A stretch of 64,000 nt of DNA from Promethearchaeota archaeon (GCA_048938445.1 JBHLME010000002.1:6662-70661), one strand, 5' to 3'; positions 17,615-25,113 are shown, counted from the first letter of the stretch. Translations and numbers: made by a program. Notes: generated by a model not told the origin, from the letters alone.

Positions 17615-18070
17615 TTAGCTTCTATCTATAGATAGATATTTTTTTTGTCTTAAAAAGATTACACCAATTTTCGCATTTCTTGCTTTTTTACGTAAATCTT
17701 GATCATTAGATGCCAAAAATATATTCGATCTTTCTTCTTTAAGTTCAGTAGCCTTACGTAATAAAAACTCATCTGTAGTTTCTATTTGATCCTTTATAGA
17801 ATCATCAATTTCAATATTATATTGATTTTTATTTTTATCAAGATAGATAAGTCCTGACTCTAATTGTTTATAAAATTTAGTAGCTTTTGGTTCTCTCTCT
17901 TTTTTTGCTTCTAATTCATCAAAGATTTGTCTATACACAATAAATTTTGTTCTGCCTTCCAAACGTGAATTAATATTCTCAAGGTAGTTAATTTTGAATT
18001 GGAAAGGAAGAAAAATAAAATTAGAATCTATTATAACAAGGTTTTCATAATGAATATTTTTAGGGCTCAA
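17615..18070 (-). CDS. PIN-domain protein (Fcf1/Utp24-like, VapC9 type)
   Basis: IIDSNF, ELE, TDEFLL, ASNDQDLRKK, FLRQKKYL. Confidence 0.8.
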   Translation of the reverse strand: MSPKNIHYENLVIIDSNFIFLPFQFKINYLENINSRLEGRTKFIVYRQIFDELEAKKEREPKATKFYKQLESGLIYLDKNKNQYNIEIDDSIKDQIETTDEFLLRKATELKEERSNIFLASNDQDLRKKARNAKIGVIFLRQKKYLSIDRS

Positions 18071-18588
18071 AAAACTTGTCGCTCTAATATTTTTTTAGTT
18101 AATTTTTCAAAAGCAAAGTTAACGTTTTCACCAGATTTACTTGAAATTTTTATAAAATCAAATAAATTAAAAGCTTCTTGAAAAGATTGAGCATAATCAT
18201 CATCAACCATTATTTCTTCTGTTAAATCTAACTTTGTTCCAACAAATAACACTGGAAGATCAGGATCACCCTTCCGAACTATATTTATCCATTGCTCTAA
18301 ATTATCTAACGTTATTGGACGAGTGAGATCAAACATTAAAAGAGCACCTTTAGCCCCCAAAACGTAGCTTTCAAGGAGGAATCTAAACCGCTCTTGACCA
18401 CCAAAATCCCAAAGTTGTAGGGTTGCGGCATTTCCATCCACTTCAGTTTCTTTTAAAAAAAACTCCACTCCAATTGTCATCTTTGTTTCTGCACTGAATT
18501 TGCCTTCAACATATCTATGCAGAAGCGTGGTTTTTCCAACGCCACCTTCCCCCGCTGTTAGAATCTTCAGTATGAACTTTTTCGGCAT
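18067..18588 (-). CDS. Rab-like small GTPase
   Basis: GEGGVGKT, TIGVEF, WDFGGQERFR, GTKLD, SSK; stop overlaps the PIN gene start. Confidence 0.92.
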   Translation of the reverse strand: MPKKFILKILTAGEGGVGKTTLLHRYVEGKFSAETKMTIGVEFFLKETEVDGNAATLQLWDFGGQERFRFLLESYVLGAKGALLMFDLTRPITLDNLEQWINIVRKGDPDLPVLFVGTKLDLTEEIMVDDDYAQSFQEAFNLFDFIKISSKSGENVNFAFEKLTKKILERQVF

Positions 18589-19327: not shown

Positions 19328-19864
19328 TTACTCCGCTTTTTTTCTCTGATTAATCCTATTATGCTTTATTAGAGTTTCTCTAATCGATTTAATTTCTGCT
19401 CGTGTTTCTATATCAAAATCTTTTAAACCCTCAAGAATCTCTTTTTCATTTGAACCCATACTATAGAGTTCATTAAATTTTACTATTACCTCTTTATGAT
19501 AGTAAATGTAATGTCTTTCTAGAAAAATAATCAACCATTCTTTATTTGATTGGTACTGTGTTAAATCATACATTTTTTCTTGAATTTTTTTTAATGGCTC
19601 CTTTAATTTTCTGGCAACCATTCTATCGTCAATTTTATAATGACTTTTTAAAGTTTTATTTAATTTTTTTGTAAAAAAGAGTGAATTAATATATGAAACC
19701 AAAAATGAAAATGCCAATAATAAAATCGTAATAACACATATCCAAATCGTTGCGACAGGATTAACATTTATGAAAAGTAGTGCTATTAACGCTATGGTTA
19801 AAAAGATTATTGTAATTATATGTTGTCTAAATTTTTTAATGAGTATTATGTATTTTTTTGGCAT
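19328..19864 (-). CDS. Hypothetical membrane protein (2 TM plus basic cytoplasmic domain)
   Basis: Two hydrophobic helices near the N-terminus. Confidence 0.7.
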   Translation of the reverse strand: MPKKYIILIKKFRQHIITIIFLTIALIALLFINVNPVATIWICVITILLLAFSFLVSYINSLFFTKKLNKTLKSHYKIDDRMVARKLKEPLKKIQEKMYDLTQYQSNKEWLIIFLERHYIYYHKEVIVKFNELYSMGSNEKEILEGLKDFDIETRAEIKSIRETLIKHNRINQRKKAE

Positions 19865-19950
19865 TTAATTAATCAAGTCCATTATATTTTTTTATGATTA
19901 AATGATATTAATTATTAAATAAATAAAAATTATTAGATAAGTAAAGTTAA

Positions 19951-20146
19951 TGGTATGCGACCATCTAGCTGCACTATCTATTCTGAGTTCGGATGTTATC
20001 AGGTAGATCCTAGCTTACCATGACCGTAAACGTATTTACAGTTTGTCATTTCCCACTGATCGCAACAGCAGTACTATTGACAACGTAAGCAAGTTTAACT
20101 TCCAGAGATATGGCGATATGCCACAGCATCATGGTCATTAATACCA
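19951..20146 (-). other. 5S precursor processing stem with BHB/BHL-like motif
   Basis: Nested complements 19951-56/20141-46, 19959-64/20131-36, 19968-71/20124-27, 19975-79/20106-10; central helix CUGG/UCAG followed by AAG and AAU bulges. Confidence 0.8.
19981..20099 (-). rRNA. rrf: 5S rRNA, circularly permuted gene (3' half 20099-20035, UACG linker 20034-20031, 5' half 20030-19981)
   Basis: Conserved CCGAAC loop C, GUUAA, AGUA/GAA loop E, GCGA loop D; helices I-V all pair once the halves are reordered. Confidence 0.92.
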
Positions 20147-20309
20147 ATTCAAATCCGTTCATAAGATCGGTAATTTGAAATTCGAATTCCTACTTATGTG
20201 GATAAATTATAATAACTCTAATTATTTTTAATAATTAAATTTTATTATATTTATTCGTCTCGTGAAGTAAACCGTTAAATTTAAATAATATTCAAGTGAA
20301 TCATTAAGA

Positions 20310-20879: not shown

Positions 20880-23054
20880 TCATTCTTTTAATCTTTTCAA
20901 ATTACTAGAATGTTGATTGATACCTCTAATAACTATCACTATAGAAAGACCTGTTATAAATGATATAAGAATAGTACCGCCTATCAAGACAATGTAAGTC
21001 GAAGGAATAGGGATGAGGAATTCAAATGTCTGCGAATAAAATTGCGTGTTGTTGGCATAATCTCTAGTGATGATTGTAAATTCATAGAAGCCCGGCATCA
21101 TTTTATTCAATAAGACTTGCAGCAAGGTGTTGTTTTCATACAATGTATTTCTTGATATATCATAGGTGTAGGTTCCACTTATTTTATCTTGAATTAAAAC
21201 AATGGCACTTTCAATTCCCGAGCGGTTATCTGAGGCAAAAATATCGAAACAAATGTTGTCTAAAGTCGTGGGATTAATTTTATCACAAAACACGCTTGAA
21301 ATAACGGGCTTGATATTGTCTTCTTTGGTCGTGAAGTTAAAATGGGAAGGAATTAAATTATGACCTGTAATCGTCACGTTATATTTTTCATTGGCGTTCG
21401 GATAGACGCGAAATTTTGCTATGCCATTTATATCCGCGTATACAGTGTTATATTTCCCATCTTCCGTCGTTAGATGGATTCTCGCATGAGGAACTATATT
21501 GTTTCGTGTATCTCTGATGGTTATTGAGACTAACTGACCTTCATAAATGTCCCCTGTAAATGGATTTGAAGCATTTACGGGTTTGTTCGTGTAGATGTCA
21601 ACTTCGGGATCACCTAAAAGGCAATAGGTCAAGACATTCTTTCTTTGATATCCTAAACTCATCGATGATATTGTCTGGGCAAAGATATCGGAATTTACGT
21701 AATCTAGTTTGGAATCATACAGGGTTTTACCTTGTTGGTAAATTTTATCTTCAAAAAATTTCTCCCAGAATAATTTCGCATTAGCTCTATTTAAAAATTC
21801 GAAATCAAAATCATCTACAATATACCATGTAACGCGTAATGCCCCAATATAACCAATAGCACCAGAGTTAGTCGCTTTGATTAATATTTCTCCTATGTTC
21901 TGATCAGTATCATCATAAGCTGAAGTTGTACAAGCATCAGCATAGATCAATGAAGGCATATCAGCATTAGAACTAGATGATGCTTGAGTATCTGTGTATA
22001 TACTAAAACCTACACCACGGCTACTATATAATCCAGTATCACCATGACCCGCAAACATGATCGTTGAGTAACCACTGTTAAATTCATTGTTAAATTCAGA
22101 AGCATCACTAATTTCGTCTACAGTATCTGATGGATCTACTGAAGTATTCACTGAAAAATAAGTTGATCTATATAAATGAGTAAAATTCATTTCAGGTTCG
22201 ACATAATTTTTCCAGATATATTCTGTCAAACGAGCCTCATCTTCACCATCGGGACTTGCTTCAATAACAGTATCTGAGATTACTCCTGCTAATAACATGT
22301 TATTCATCCAATCATCAATATATGGATCTGACTCGTATTTTATGGTCTTATTGACCATCTGTTGTAATTCGATATAATTGCTAGCTGGCAAGCGTCCAAC
22401 ATACACTTCAGGGATCCAATTAATTTCATCTATTCCAAATGCATTATATATTGGTGATTCACCAAAATTATTGTCATTATCATCATCCCACGTGCCCGTC
22501 AAGTCGGCATAATAAAAATCCGTAGGTTTGTAAACCCTATCACCATGTTCTGGGTGAGGTCCGTTAGGAGCATCGTCAACATCTGGATTATAAACATATC
22601 TTATTGGAATGAGACTATTTTCTGCATCTCCCACTAATAAGACCCATCGAATCCCTTCTTTTTCATAGTATTCCTTTATCATGTTTCGAATTCGTTCTGG
22701 ATCGTCTCTCCCAGGGTATGATGAGAAATTGCTCAATATGATGGTCTTAACTCCTTTTTGGTTCTTCCAGTCCCGTAATGGAATGGTTGCATTGATAAAA
22801 TTCTCATCATCGGGAGTTATGATTATCATTTCAACATCATGGTCATACCAAGTTTCATTTAAATCAGTAAAATTAAATTCAGGTATTAATGACGGATTTA
22901 AATCAGAAATGTAACCTGATGTTTTTAATATTTCAGAATTATTAAAGTTCTTAAAAGTTATTGCGTTAAGGTTTATGATTAAAATATAAGTTGGGAAAAC
23001 AAGGAAAATAATAAATGAGAGATATATAATTCTTTTTAAGAGAAGCGACTTCAT
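20880..23054 (-). CDS. Peptidase C25 (gingipain-like) cysteine protease, membrane anchored
   Basis: VLLVGD, TDFYYADL, VGRLP, FAGHG (His), ADAC (Cys), LLGDP; N-terminal signal/TM and C-terminal TM. Confidence 0.88.
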   Translation of the reverse strand: MKSLLLKRIIYLSFIIFLVFPTYILIINLNAITFKNFNNSEILKTSGYISDLNPSLIPEFNFTDLNETWYDHDVEMIIITPDDENFINATIPLRDWKNQKGVKTIILSNFSSYPGRDDPERIRNMIKEYYEKEGIRWVLLVGDAENSLIPIRYVYNPDVDDAPNGPHPEHGDRVYKPTDFYYADLTGTWDDDNDNNFGESPIYNAFGIDEINWIPEVYVGRLPASNYIELQQMVNKTIKYESDPYIDDWMNNMLLAGVISDTVIEASPDGEDEARLTEYIWKNYVEPEMNFTHLYRSTYFSVNTSVDPSDTVDEISDASEFNNEFNSGYSTIMFAGHGDTGLYSSRGVGFSIYTDTQASSSSNADMPSLIYADACTTSAYDDTDQNIGEILIKATNSGAIGYIGALRVTWYIVDDFDFEFLNRANAKLFWEKFFEDKIYQQGKTLYDSKLDYVNSDIFAQTISSMSLGYQRKNVLTYCLLGDPEVDIYTNKPVNASNPFTGDIYEGQLVSITIRDTRNNIVPHARIHLTTEDGKYNTVYADINGIAKFRVYPNANEKYNVTITGHNLIPSHFNFTTKEDNIKPVISSVFCDKINPTTLDNICFDIFASDNRSGIESAIVLIQDKISGTYTYDISRNTLYENNTLLQVLLNKMMPGFYEFTIITRDYANNTQFYSQTFEFLIPIPSTYIVLIGGTILISFITGLSIVIVIRGINQHSSNLKRLKE

Positions 23055-23517: not shown

Positions 23518-25113
23518 ATGAAACATAATTTAGAAGACGTTACTGGTATTGGAAAAGCAACAGCCGAGCGGTTAAAAAAAGCTGGTATTAATTCTGTTGA
23601 AAAGTTAGTATCAATAGAATTAGATCAATTATTACAAGTAAAAGGTATTGGAGAGTCTACAGCGAAAAGTCTTAAGGAAAAAGCTGAAAATTATTTAAAA
23701 GGATTAAGTGAACCTGCTTCTGAAGGTGGTTCAATTAGCAAACCAAAGGTCGAAAAGCAGAAAGCTACCCTTATAAAAGAAGAAAAAGAAGTTGTTGAAA
23801 AAGACCAAGTAAAAAAGGGAGGTGCTGCAATTATTAAAGGTTCAACTAAAAAAATAGTTCAGAAACAAGCAGAATGCAATATTGGATTAGTGGGACATGT
23901 AGATCATGGAAAAACAACCTTGGTGAAGGCATTAACAGGAGATTGGACAGATAGACACTCTGAGGAGCAAGAACGTGGAATATCTATAAAATTAGGATAT
24001 TCAAACGCAACGATATTATATTGTCCCGAATGTGATAGCTACATGACAGCATATATGGTTGAAAAAGAAAGGAATAAGGGTCAACCCAAATATAATTGTC
24101 CCATGTGTAAAAAAAATTTGGAATTTAAGCGAAATATTTCATTTGTAGACGCTCCAGGTCATGAGATATTAATGGCTACCATGTTAAGTGGAGCTTCATT
24201 GATGGATGGAGCTTGTTTATTAATTGCCGCAGATGAAAAATGCCCACAACCTCAAACCAGAGAACATTTAGCAGCTTTAAATATAGCTGGAATTCAAAAC
24301 ATCATTATCATACAAAATAAAATTGACGCCGTTTCAAAAGAACAAGCATTAGAGAACTATAATCAAATTAAAAAATTTGTTAAAGGAACTGTGGCAGAAA
24401 ATGCACCAGTTATCCCTATTTCAGCAGTTTTTAGTGCTAACTTGGATCTAATTGTAAGAGGTTTTGAAGAAATCATAGCGTCTCCTGAATTAAATGAAAA
24501 TGATGATTTTGAATTTTTAATTGCACGATCTTTCGATATTAATCGTCCTGGAAAAAAAATTGATGAATTAAAAGGTGGAGTTATTGGAGGTTCAGTTTTA
24601 AAGGGGAAAGTTAAAATTGGAGACCAAATCGAAATTAAACCCGGACTTCACATCAAAAATGAGTATAAACCTATAAATTCAACTGTAGTAAGTATTAATC
24701 AAGGAAATATTCAATTAACAGAAGCAAAACCTGGTGGACTTATCGGTCTGGGTACACTTCTTGATCCCACTTTAACAAAGGGAGATTCTTTGATTGGTCA
24801 CTTAGTCGGAAAAGTTGGAACGCTTCCAAATATAATTTCAGAAATTGAACTGGAAGTTAATTTACTTGATCGTGTCGTAGGTTCAGAAAATCAAATAAAA
24901 ATTTATGATCTTAAACATAATGAAAAATTACTATTAGTTGTTGGTACAGAAAAAACAGCAGGAACAGTAACCAAGATATTAAAGAATTCATATATCCTAA
25001 AATTAAATCCACCAATTTGTCCCGCAGAGAATTTCATTTTTGCAATCTCTCGAATCATTAATCGTCGTTATCGTTTAATAGGTTATGGTATAAGAGTTAA
25101 TCATGAAAGGTAG
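23518..25113 (+). CDS. eif2g: Translation initiation factor aIF-2 gamma with N-terminal (HhH)2 domain
   Basis: NIGLVGHVDHGKTT, RGISIKLGY, Zn knuckle, DAPGHE, QNKID, RSFDINRPG, RLIGYG; N-terminal VTGIG/VKGIG HhH. Confidence 0.95.
   Translation: MKHNLEDVTGIGKATAERLKKAGINSVEKLVSIELDQLLQVKGIGESTAKSLKEKAENYLKGLSEPASEGGSISKPKVEKQKATLIKEEKEVVEKDQVKKGGAAIIKGSTKKIVQKQAECNIGLVGHVDHGKTTLVKALTGDWTDRHSEEQERGISIKLGYSNATILYCPECDSYMTAYMVEKERNKGQPKYNCPMCKKNLEFKRNISFVDAPGHEILMATMLSGASLMDGACLLIAADEKCPQPQTREHLAALNIAGIQNIIIIQNKIDAVSKEQALENYNQIKKFVKGTVAENAPVIPISAVFSANLDLIVRGFEEIIASPELNENDDFEFLIARSFDINRPGKKIDELKGGVIGGSVLKGKVKIGDQIEIKPGLHIKNEYKPINSTVVSINQGNIQLTEAKPGGLIGLGTLLDPTLTKGDSLIGHLVGKVGTLPNIISEIELEVNLLDRVVGSENQIKIYDLKHNEKLLLVVGTEKTAGTVTKILKNSYILKLNPPICPAENFIFAISRIINRRYRLIGYGIRVNHER

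What the first reader, a model, noticed from the sequence alone, without database searches (positions are those of the whole stretch)
19981..20099. Circularly permuted 5S rRNA gene in an Asgard archaeon
Seen: the - strand reads GUUAAA-CUUGCUUAC-GUUGUCA-AUAGUA-CUGCUG-UUGCGAU-CAGUGG-GAAA-UGACAA-ACUGUAAA (canonical 3' half, 20099-20035), then UACG, then UUUACGGU-CAUG-GUAAGCUAG-GAUCU-ACCUGA-UAACAUCCGAAC-UCAG-AA (canonical 5' half, 20030-19981). Once reordered, every 5S helix pairs: I UUUACGGU/ACUGUAAA (8 bp), II GUAAGCUAG/CUUGCUUAC (8 of 9), III AC-CUGA/UCAG-(AA)-GU, V UUGUCA/UGACAA, IV CUGCUG/CAGUGG. The CCGAAC, AGUA/GAA and GCGA signatures are intact. The normal 5' and 3' ends are joined in the gene by a UNCG-type tetraloop, and the break sits at the AA bulge of helix III. 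Established: permuted tRNA genes (Thermofilum, Cyanidioschyzon), permuted SRP RNA (Thermoproteus) and permuted mitochondrial 5S (brown algae) exist. I know of no described permuted chromosomal 5S gene in archaea, but that needs a literature check. Inference: this is the functional 5S gene, and linear rRNA annotators would miss or fragment it.
Basis: partly seen in the sequence, partly recalled or inferred. Interest (0 to 1): 0.97.

Follow-up and report, generated by a model that had tools for sequence, protein, structure and literature searches.

The report
Permuted, splice-flanked 5S rRNA gene
The only 5S ribosomal RNA gene of this Asgard archaeon has its two halves in swapped order and is flanked by the cut-and-join signal of the tRNA-splicing enzyme, so the RNA is probably made as a closed circle; most Asgard lineages share this layout, which explains why their 5S genes go unannotated.

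Summary
Window 19981-20099 (- strand) is a 5S rRNA gene in the order 3' half, UACG tetraloop, 5' half. Rfam misses it (two sub-threshold hits in swapped order). A profile of 27 linear Asgard 5S genes gives one full-length hit (42 bits, E 3e-13) once the 119 nt are closed into a circle. The permuted fold shows strong covariation: 95% of cells paired against 35-43% when slid, and 21 of 35 pairs with compensatory changes.

New here:
- The genome has two EndA paralogues and RtcB, and no linear 5S gene.
- The layout occurs in 119 of 135 genomes of the family, with two alternative breakpoints on either side of loop C.
- It occurs in 91 of 151 sampled genomes of the phylum (19 of 25 families). These include records titled Heimdall-, Odin-, Jord-, Njord-, Baldr-, Hel- and Freyarchaeota.
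- One metatranscriptome contig from a relative is a closed 121-nt cycle that contains the join absent from DNA.

I found no published report. Whether the mature RNA stays circular is inferred, not shown.

The parts
19981..20099 (-). Permuted 5S rRNA body (119 nt), bounded by the two predicted splicing-endonuclease cut sites
20035..20099 (-). Canonical 3' half: GU of helix III base, loop B 3' side, helix II 3' strand, helix V, loop E, helix IV, loop D, helix I 3' strand
   Evidence: RF00001 model about 55-120; HMM 48-117
20031..20034 (-). UACG tetraloop capping helix I, where the normal 5S ends would be
   Evidence: (51 of 71 distinct cap segments fold with 4-nt loops: UUCG 28, UACG 8)
19981..20030 (-). 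Canonical 5' half: helix I 5' strand, loop A, helix II 5' strand, loop B, helix III, loop C, and the AA bulge
   Evidence: model about 1-52; HMM 3-51
20102..20105 (-). Leader strand CUGG of the 4-bp central BHB helix. It mimics the 5' strand of helix III and pairs with UCAG at 19983-19986
   Evidence: central helix 3.96 of 4 bp over 46 distinct leader/trailer pairs
20099..20101 (-). 5' bulge AAG; predicted cut between 20100 and 20099
   Evidence: cut position after the second bulge base follows the rule for archaeal tRNA introns (recalled)
19980..19982 (-). 3' bulge AAU; predicted cut between 19981 and 19980
20106..20110 (-). Leader strand UAUCU of the outer BHB helix; pairs with AGAUA at 19975-19979
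   Evidence: outer 5 bp; leader/trailer covariation, 0 of 2000 permutations reach the observed value
19975..19979 (-). Trailer strand AGAUA of the outer BHB helix
20111..20123 (-). Leader hairpin UGGC-AUAUC-GCCA between the distal processing stem and the BHB; a hairpin sits here in most relatives
   Evidence: in MFE and centroid; relatives, by eye
20124..20136 (-). Leader strands of the distal processing stem (GACCAU, GCUG)
   Evidence: MFE and centroid pair them with the trailer
19959..19971 (-). Trailer strands of the distal processing stem (CAGC, AUGGUC)

Best explanation
This is the organism's single, functional 5S rRNA gene, encoded in circularly permuted order. It is transcribed on its own as a precursor of roughly 200 nt. 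The leader pairs with the trailer. Next to the body, a 4-nt leader copy of one helix III strand pairs with the real partner strand, which gives a bulge-helix-bulge motif. The tRNA-splicing endonuclease cuts after the second base of each 3-nt bulge and releases exactly 20099-19981. RtcB joins the two ends, which recreates the normal continuity between helix III and loop B. The product is a 119-nt covalently closed 5S rRNA whose helix I is capped by a UNCG tetraloop where ordinary 5S has its ends. Shown here: the gene order, the fold, the BHB, the enzyme genes, the wide conservation, and one circular RNA-library contig from a relative. Inferred: cleavage and ligation in this organism, and that the circle (rather than a re-opened form) is what sits in the ribosome.
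For: Order and fold.

Circular closure. A profile HMM of 27 linear-order Asgard 5S genes gives two partial hits on the native DNA, HMM 48-117 at 18.8 bits followed by HMM 3-51 at 11.2 bits. On the body doubled in a script it gives one hit, HMM 3-116, 42.0 bits, E 3e-13. Medians over 59 distinct genes are 22.8 and 44.5 bits.

BHB. A strict search finds outer 5 bp, central 4 bp and two 3-nt bulges that bound a 119-nt body. With cut sites set by homology alone, the central helix is 4 of 4 bp in 63 of 65 loci, and the outer helix is at least 3 bp in 63 of 65. Over 46 distinct leader/trailer pairs the outer run averages 4.17 bp, against 2.54 when leaders and trailers are cross-paired. No permutation of 2000 reaches the observed value, and sliding the register by 1-2 nt collapses the pairing.

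Two breakpoints. One lies 3' and one 5' of loop C, each with its own BHB. The predicted ligation restores the canonical sequence to the base in both.

Enzymes. The genome has two EndA-domain ORFs and one RtcB.

Sole 5S gene.

RNA. A 151-nt contig of a metatranscriptome 'goes back 88'. Its first and last 30 letters map to the same stretch, 20028-20057, which is the signature of a closed 121-nt cycle at k=31. It holds both the tetraloop join and the join of helix III to loop B.

Cap. It is a UNCG-type tetraloop in most genes.
Against: - No reads of the window's own organism were found. The circular contig comes from a relative (75 letters with 4 differences, 43 with 1, and 33 too divergent to lay). 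It is one contig at depth 3.7, and an RNA library can hold DNA.
- Contigs cannot show molecule ends, so a re-opened or nicked mature form is not excluded.
- The inner helix h' of a full hBHBh' motif is missing, so the substrate is of the relaxed hBH kind.
- In the same-genus relative L028 the outer helix is only 2 bp.
- The minimum-free-energy fold of the window's precursor pairs the trailer AGAUA with a body segment instead of the leader, and the overall z-score is only -1.19.
- RF00001 could not be run on the joined sequence; the test used a sequence-only HMM.
Confidence: 0.75

Rival explanations
1. The circle is only an intermediate. After BHB excision and ligation, a nuclease opens the helix I cap, giving a linear 5S with ordinary ends, as happens with permuted tRNA genes and with the circular pre-16S/23S rRNAs of many archaea.
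For: This is the precedent for the known permuted tRNA genes (recalled). It is also the precedent for circular pre-rRNAs that are re-linearised (abstract of PMC10515664; passages of PMC12918454). The cap varies in length in some genes: there are about 30-nt inserts in L025 and L063 with no BHB, and 6- to 11-nt loops in 7 of 71 segments. Contigs cannot show ends.
Against: Between the two helix I strands there are usually only 4 nt. These are mostly UUCG or UACG (36 of 71 distinct segments), a very stable structural loop rather than a spacer carrying processing signals. The closed-cycle contig carries the cap join and the ligation join together. Circular 23S rRNA within mature archaeal ribosomes is reported (PMC12918454, title, abstract and passages).
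Confidence: 0.18
2. The endonuclease cuts but nothing ligates. The ribosome then carries a linear permuted 5S whose ends lie at the AA bulge of helix III, with helix I closed by the tetraloop.
For: The gene order alone would allow it. Permuted organellar 5S rRNAs are reported (PMC4267664, search listing and start of abstract only). An engineered circularly permuted 5S works in E. coli when linked to 23S rRNA (PMC7283268, start of abstract only).
Against: The RNA-library contig contains the joined sequence. RtcB is present. In both breakpoint types the predicted ends restore the canonical sequence exactly, which would not be required if they were never joined. The break moves across loop C between close relatives, which is easier if the final molecule is the same.
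Confidence: 0.06
3. It is an assembly artefact, a pseudogene or a chance resemblance, and the real 5S gene is unassembled.
For: The assembly has 256 contigs and 8.2% contamination, and rRNA genes are often missing from such assemblies.
Against: The same order occurs, mostly as one copy per genome, in 119 of 135 family genomes. It also occurs in single-contig genomes of the phylum that have no RF00001 hit above cut-off (G154, G164, G174, G177, G188, G214). Compensatory changes occur in 21 of 35 pairs. An independent run gives collinear contigs.
Confidence: 0.01

Closest known systems
Circularly permuted tRNA genes (Cyanidioschyzon merolae; Thermofilum pendens).
   Same: The 3' half is encoded upstream of the 5' half in one transcript. 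A BHB forms where the precursor's ends meet. Splicing endonuclease and ligase are expected to make a circular RNA.
   Different: In tRNAs the native ends are then freed by RNase P and tRNase Z from an intervening sequence. Here the native ends are bridged by a 4-nt UNCG loop with no evident processing site. The RNA is a ribosomal RNA, and the layout is the rule across a phylum rather than a feature of a few genes.
Circular pre-16S/23S rRNA intermediates, and circular or permuted 23S rRNA in mature archaeal ribosomes (PMC12918454 passages; PMC7758197 and bioRxiv 10.64898/2026.03.23.713588 listings and abstracts; PMC10515664 abstract)
   Same: A leader-trailer processing stem holds a BHB, which EndA cuts and RtcB ligates to give a circle. 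For 23S rRNA the circle or a permuted form is reported to stay in the ribosome.
   Different: Those genes are in the normal order, and the circle joins the natural ends. Here the gene is permuted, and ligation joins an internal site (helix III/loop B). PMC12918454 states that circularisation holds for 16S and 23S 'but not 5S rRNAs'.
Permuted organelle-encoded 5S rRNAs (PMC4267664; search listing and start of abstract only)
   Same: A 5S rRNA whose segments are in circularly permuted order.
   Different: They are organellar and strongly derived, and I know of no BHB or splicing-endonuclease pathway for them. I did not read the paper's body, so I cannot compare breakpoints.
Low-level circular 5S rRNA reads in Sulfolobus solfataricus and Halobacterium (PMC3326292, passages)
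   Same: Circular forms of archaeal 5S rRNA were seen in RNA-seq.
   Different: Those genes are linear, the circles join the natural ends and were rare, and the 5S circle was the only non-coding circle that RT-PCR did not validate. No BHB or permutation was involved.
Known archaeal 5S maturation: tRNase Z at the 5' end in Haloferax (PMC7714728 passage); cuts at A/U-rich motifs in Methanococcus maripaludis (PMC10515664 abstract)
   Same: A stand-alone or operon-borne pre-5S with leader and trailer that endonucleases trim.
   Different: Neither uses the splicing endonuclease or ligation for 5S.

Membership tests
5S rRNA (Rfam RF00001) | Three-way junction with helices I-V, kept by compensatory changes | tested here: met
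   95.2% of cells paired against 35-43% when slid; 21 of 35 pairs changed on both sides; 76.8% against at most 52.8% on 21 genes across the phylum (MAFFT misaligns helices III and IV).
5S rRNA (Rfam RF00001) | Conserved loop motifs (loop C CCGAAC, loop E AGUA/GAA, loop A CAURG) | tested here: met
   these are invariant columns among 12 relatives.
5S rRNA (Rfam RF00001) | Score at or above the gathering threshold (38 bits) on the genomic sequence | tested here: not met
   19.3 and 15.9 bits, as expected for swapped halves.
5S rRNA (Rfam RF00001) | Full-length collinear match once the permutation is undone | tested here: met
   using a profile HMM of 27 linear Asgard 5S genes rather than the covariance model: HMM 3-116, 42.0 bits, E 3e-13 on the doubled body. 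RF00001 itself could not be run on a joined sequence.
5S rRNA (Rfam RF00001) | Incorporated in the large ribosomal subunit | not testable with these tools
   Needs ribosome purification or cryo-EM.
Bulge-helix-bulge substrate of the archaeal splicing endonuclease | Two 3-nt bulges on opposite strands separated by a 4-bp helix | tested here: met
   Window: CUGG/UCAG with bulges AAG and AAU. Central helix is 4 of 4 bp in 63 of 65 family loci.
Bulge-helix-bulge substrate of the archaeal splicing endonuclease | Flanking outer helix h | tested here: met
   5 bp in the window; at least 3 bp in 63 of 65 loci; 10-15 bp in 8 other families; covaries.
Bulge-helix-bulge substrate of the archaeal splicing endonuclease | Flanking inner helix h' (full hBHBh' form) | tested here: not met
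   By eye, nothing pairs directly inside the central helix, so this is the relaxed hBH form. By contrast, the 30-nt inserts in loops C and D of relatives have inner helices of 3-9 bp.
Bulge-helix-bulge substrate of the archaeal splicing endonuclease | Cut by EndA and joined by RtcB | not testable with these tools
   The genes are present: two EndA paralogues and RtcB. One junction-bearing RNA-library contig from a relative was found.
Permuted RNA genes matured through a circular RNA (tRNA type) | 3' half precedes 5' half in one transcription unit, with a BHB formed by the precursor's two ends | tested here: met
Permuted RNA genes matured through a circular RNA (tRNA type) | Intervening sequence between the native ends is removed to free them | tested here: inconclusive
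   Only a 4-nt UNCG loop lies there in most genes. No read ends are available.

The most novel reading that the evidence does not exclude
The 5S rRNA inside the ribosomes of most Asgard archaea, including the Heimdall group nearest to eukaryotes, is a covalently closed circle made by the tRNA-splicing machinery from a permuted gene. This state is old within the phylum, so linear 5S genes in some Asgard families (and possibly on the line to eukaryotes) would be reversions.
Probability: 0.45. Interest if true: 0.97.

Novelty: new variant of a known kind. Interest (0 to 1): 0.95.

Why it matters
5S rRNA is treated as the most constant rRNA, and its gene is taken to be trivially recognisable. Here an entire phylum mostly encodes it in a form that standard tools cannot see.

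This explains a published puzzle. [quoted passage not shown] Records with those organism titles each carry two permuted, BHB-flanked copies.

It also bears on genome-quality standards that ask for a 5S gene.

It extends the reach of the splicing endonuclease and RtcB pathway to the third rRNA. It predicts a circular 5S rRNA, which can be tested directly with existing metatranscriptomes or enrichment cultures.

It gives a natural example of an rRNA whose breakpoint moves between close relatives. It also supplies a covariance model recipe for annotating these genes.

Tried and rejected
1. Whole-window Rfam scan at gathering threshold: nothing.
2. ARAGORN: no tRNA in the window.
3. MAFFT-based counts of the BHB pairs were unreliable, because MAFFT shifts the trailer by one column in many rows. 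I replaced them with counts anchored on the cut sites.
4. RNAalifold on the phylum alignment recovered only 19 pairs.
5. Thermodynamic folding of the window's precursor does not single out the BHB. The z-score is -1.19, and the trailer pairs with the body in the MFE.
6. The metagenome-contig scan for the ligated order returned 10 long contigs. These are ordinary linear 5S genes of other organisms, so my pattern was not specific to the family. The scan says nothing about ligation.
7. The second RNA-library contig (149 nt, depth 18.9) lays on only 36 nt, so whether it is a cycle cannot be told.
8. The sequencing-run search found only two small-share holders and none of the window's own organism.
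9. Inserts in the helix I cap (L025, L063) and after loop B (L079) show no canonical BHB and remain unexplained.
10. For 9 of 18 loci from other families, and for all 4 f3/f4 loci, my automatic BHB rule found no clean motif. By eye the causes are a leader hairpin next to the central helix or a 3-of-4 central helix.
11. Earlier notes of this scan hold no permuted 5S.
12. One fetched region (L128) was a stray and was not used.

Full report
**Observation.** The 3' half of a 5S rRNA is at 20099-20035, a UACG loop at 20034-20031, and the 5' half at 20030-19981. Rfam at gathering threshold finds nothing in the 64-kb window. A permissive scan of 19850-20250 gives two RF00001 hits in swapped order, of 19.3 and 15.9 bits against a cut-off of 38. 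The first truly matches model positions about 1-52 at 20031-19981. The second matches about 55-120 at 20099-20033.

**A real gene, and the only one.** In the whole assembly (4.63 Mb, 256 contigs, 96.5% complete) this locus is the only RF00001 candidate.
- Among 40 relatives, none of the other 24 genomes of the same family (coded f1) has a 5S above the cut-off. In the sister family f2, 9 of 11 have ordinary 5S genes of 53-69 bits.
- BLAST of the window's gene against the weak f1 candidates showed collinear similarity over the permuted order in nearly all of them.
- On an alignment of 12 of these genes (A1), the 5S fold written in permuted order pairs 95.2% of 419 cells. With the 3' partner slid by 1-3 columns the figure is 35-43%. 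Of the 35 pairs, 21 carry changes on both sides, and no shuffle of 500 reaches the observed covariation.
- A covariance model built from A1 (R1) finds the gene in 119 of 135 genomes of the family, in 12 of 13 genera and in 33 of 36 high-quality genomes. It is almost always a single copy.
- Contigs of an independent public run lie collinear with the window over 19944-20120 and 20104-20247 at 95-99% likeness.

Misassembly, pseudogene and chance can be set aside.

**Undoing the permutation.** I could not pass a joined sequence to Infernal, so I used a stand-in. I built a profile HMM from 27 linear-order 5S genes of the same phylum that scored above the Rfam cut-off.
- On native DNA the window's gene gives two partial hits in swapped order: HMM 48-117 at 18.8 bits, then HMM 3-51 at 11.2 bits.
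- On the 119-nt body doubled in the script, which imitates a circle, it gives one hit: HMM 3-116, 42.0 bits, E 3e-13.
- Over 59 distinct permuted genes the median best score rises from 22.8 to 44.5 bits.

**The flanks form a splicing signal.**
- The leader ends UAUCU-CUGG-AA|G, and the trailer begins after UCAG-AA|U-AGAUA.
- UAUCU/AGAUA is a 5-bp outer helix and CUGG/UCAG is a 4-bp central helix. AAG and AAU are two 3-nt bulges on opposite strands. Together these make a bulge-helix-bulge motif.
- The rule for archaeal tRNA introns, a cut after the second bulge base, is recalled rather than taken from a call. Applied here, it releases exactly 20099-19981.
- Joining the two ends gives CUCAGAA-GUUAAAC, the normal run from helix III into loop B.
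- I then set cut sites by homology alone, without looking for pairing. On that basis the central helix is 4 of 4 bp in 63 of 65 family loci and 3 of 4 in the other two. The outer helix is at least 3 bp in 63 of 65; the exception is the same-genus relative, fetched twice as L028 and L038, with 2 bp.
- Over 46 distinct leader/trailer pairs the outer run averages 4.17 bp, against 2.54 when leaders and trailers of different genes are combined. No permutation of 2000 reaches the observed value. Sliding the trailer by 1 or 2 nt collapses both helices.
- The central-helix base in the leader changes together with both strands of helix III, U-A in 9 genes and C-G in 3 of A1. The leader therefore carries a maintained copy of one helix III strand.
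- Further out, leader and trailer form a longer stem with a leader hairpin between the stem and the BHB (relatives by eye).
- The inner helix of a full hBHBh' motif is absent, so this is the relaxed hBH form.

**Two breakpoints.** Within family f1 the break lies either 3' of loop C and the helix III 3' strand (type 1, as in the window) or 5' of loop C (type 2).
- In type 2 the leader reads CUGG-AA|C followed by loop C, and the trailer follows CCGG-UC|A. The predicted ligation restores GGUC-CCAUCCGAAC, letter for letter the sequence of type 1 genes.
- The two types differ by moving a 16-nt piece from one end of the gene to the other.
- Both types occur within three genera: g1 (G000 and G004 against G005), g2 and g11. 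This comes from combining the handles with the types. The breakpoint has therefore switched repeatedly.
- That two different gene layouts converge on the same joined product argues that joining is what selection sees.

**Enzymes.** The genome encodes two EndA-domain proteins of 202 and 204 aa and one RtcB. By eye, the first EndA keeps a Tyr, His, Lys pattern and the second lacks the His. That resembles the catalytic and structural subunits of heterotetrameric endonucleases, which accept relaxed BHB motifs. The residue roles are recalled, not tested.

**RNA evidence.** The run search found no holder of the window's own sequence, only two small-share runs. When laid, the metatranscriptome X1 yields a 151-nt contig at depth 3.7.
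- Its letters 1-75 match 20028-20102, and its letters 109-151 match 20015-20057. The 33 letters between are too divergent to lay. The tool reports 'goes back 88'.
- The first 30 and the last 30 letters map to the same stretch, 20028-20057. At k=31 that is the signature of a closed cycle of 121 nt, and body lengths in the family are 119-122 nt.
- Read in RNA sense, the contig runs through the helix I cap, on through the 5' half and loop C, then straight into GAA-GUUAAAC and the 3' half. It therefore holds a join that neither gene type has in its DNA.
- Limits: this is one contig, from a relative, in a library that may hold DNA. It shows that the joined form exists there. It does not show what the mature form is.

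**Spread across the phylum.**
- Within the order, R1 also finds full-length permuted genes in families f3 (60.8 bits) and f4 (72-85 bits), but only weak partial hits in f2.
- In an even sample of 151 genomes of the phylum (at least 80% complete), RF00001 reaches its cut-off in 51. One of these, G236, is a 38.4-bit hit lying on a permuted gene.
- A second model built from 21 genes of many families (A2 and R2) finds permuted genes in 91 of the same 151 genomes. Ninety score 58 bits or more and one is a partial match of 36.8 bits. Five further weak hits of 28-38 bits lie on ordinary 5S genes.
- Permuted genes occur in 19 of 25 families. Linear genes occur in six families (f2, f9, f12, f14, f18, f26).
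- Single-contig genomes G154, G164, G174, G177, G188 and G214 have a permuted gene and no RF00001 hit above cut-off.
- In eight further families the BHB is textbook: central CGUG/CACG or similar, 3-nt bulges, and a contiguous outer helix of 10-15 bp.
- A motif scan of one genome for each of 185,579 species found 56 stretches. Six are on bacterial records without any 5S context, which is about the chance level I estimated beforehand. The other 50 are permuted 5S genes.
- Forty-nine of those lie on records titled as archaeal. Those with a lineage name are Heimdall-, Jord-, Njord-, Odin-, Baldr-, Hel-, Frey- or Thorarchaeota, except two titled only Promethearchaeati archaeon and one titled Thermoproteota. 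The remaining one is on a record titled as a bacterial MAG but resembles the Helarchaeota genes.
- Thirty-eight of the 50 show the 4-bp central helix and 3-nt bulges at the expected junction with bodies of 121-125 nt.
- The scan's pattern does not fit family f1 (loop D is shorter), so f1 is not among these records.
- I found no sign of the layout outside Asgard archaea, but the pattern was tuned to them.

**Introns and cap.** About 45 of the 119 family hits are 168 nt or longer (judged by length alone).
- In the loci I fetched, 30-nt inserts sit in loop C (L063-L065, L071, L072). Others sit in loop D (L024, L060, L064-L066, L073-L076). The BHB was scanned explicitly in L024, L060, L064 and L073-L075; L065, L066 and L076 are placed here by homology, body length and where their HMM match stops.
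- These inserts are BHB motifs with inner helices of 3-9 bp in loop C and 2-7 bp in loop D (2 bp in L024, before an internal mismatch). In loop D the outer helix is helix IV itself. Their predicted excision restores CAUCCGAA-CCCGG and GUUGCGA-UC. They look like spliced mini-introns.
- Earlier notes of this scan describe similar 5S mini-introns in DPANN archaea. I did not test those notes.
- The cap joining the two helix I strands folds with a 4-nt loop in 51 of 71 distinct segments: UUCG 28 times, UACG 8. That reads as a structural cap rather than a processing spacer.

**Literature.**
- The phrase 'circular 5S rRNA' is in 0 papers of the library.
- 'Permuted 5S' is in one paper, on organelles (PMC4267664).
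- These combinations returned nothing on this: permuted + 5S rRNA + archaea; 5S rRNA + bulge-helix-bulge + Asgard; 5S rRNA + Lokiarchae + circular; 5S rRNA + permuted + Asgard; 5S rRNA + splicing endonuclease + circularization + archaea; and 5S rRNA + Heimdallarchae (listings read).
- Passages I read: circularisation holds for 16S and 23S 'but not 5S rRNAs' (PMC12918454). Rare, unvalidated 5S circles occur in Sulfolobus (PMC3326292). [quoted passage not shown]
- The library lacks most subscription journals, and supplements were closed, so a prior report cannot be excluded.

**Mechanism and its rivals.** I hold with high confidence (about 0.95) that this is the functional 5S gene in permuted order with a BHB at its ends. 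That the endonuclease cuts there and RtcB joins the ends is likely (about 0.75). That the circle is the mature ribosomal form is the leading reading, but it is inferred. Re-opening at the cap (0.18) and a never-ligated linear permuted RNA (0.06) remain possible.

Noticed in passing
L063-L065, L071, L072 (loop C); L024, L060, L064-L066, L073-L076 (loop D): 30-nt inserts in relatives' permuted 5S genes are BHB motifs whose predicted excision restores the canonical loop sequences. They are probably spliced mini-introns in 5S rRNA, and some genes carry two.
   Followed up: partly
L025, L063 (helix I cap); L079 (after loop B): Inserts of about 30 nt with no canonical BHB. They may be expansions of the cap hairpin or non-canonical introns.
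   Followed up: partly
L012, L013, L017, L024, L066-L070, L073-L078, L080: A second breakpoint (5' of loop C) for the permuted gene. It is found beside the first type within three genera, so the break has moved repeatedly.
   Followed up: partly
L137 (record titled Candidatus Deferrimicrobium sp.): A contig of a MAG titled bacterial carries a permuted 5S gene close to those on Helarchaeota-titled records. This is probably a binning contaminant.
   Followed up: no
L129 (G249, family f9): A linear-order 5S gene of 152 nt with an insert after loop B scores only 32.4 bits with RF00001. It may be another interrupted 5S gene.
   Followed up: no
window 20150-20170 (- strand) and the same place in relatives: A conserved A/T-rich box of the form CTTATRWAATGG lies about 25-45 nt upstream of the leader stem and looks like a TATA box. 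This suggests the 5S gene is its own transcription unit. T-rich runs follow the trailer.
   Followed up: no
window 23518-25113 (+): A translation initiation factor 2 gamma-like protein (GTP_EFTU, eIF2_C) carries an N-terminal helix-hairpin-helix domain, which is not usual for this factor.
   Followed up: no
window 18067-18588 (-), 20880-23054 (-): A Ras-family small GTPase, in keeping with an Asgard genome, and a C25 (gingipain-type) peptidase with an Ig-like domain sit on either side of the 5S locus.
   Followed up: no
L189-L198 (metagenome contigs): Ten ordinary linear 5S genes of unidentified organisms share the ACGGUCAURG and GUUAAAC motifs of family f1, each with a TATA-like box upstream and a T-run downstream.
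   Followed up: no
G032 (family f2): The single-contig genome of the sister family carries three linear 5S genes in tandem about 375 nt apart. Tandem copies are the kind of layout from which permuted and linear orders can interconvert.
   Followed up: no
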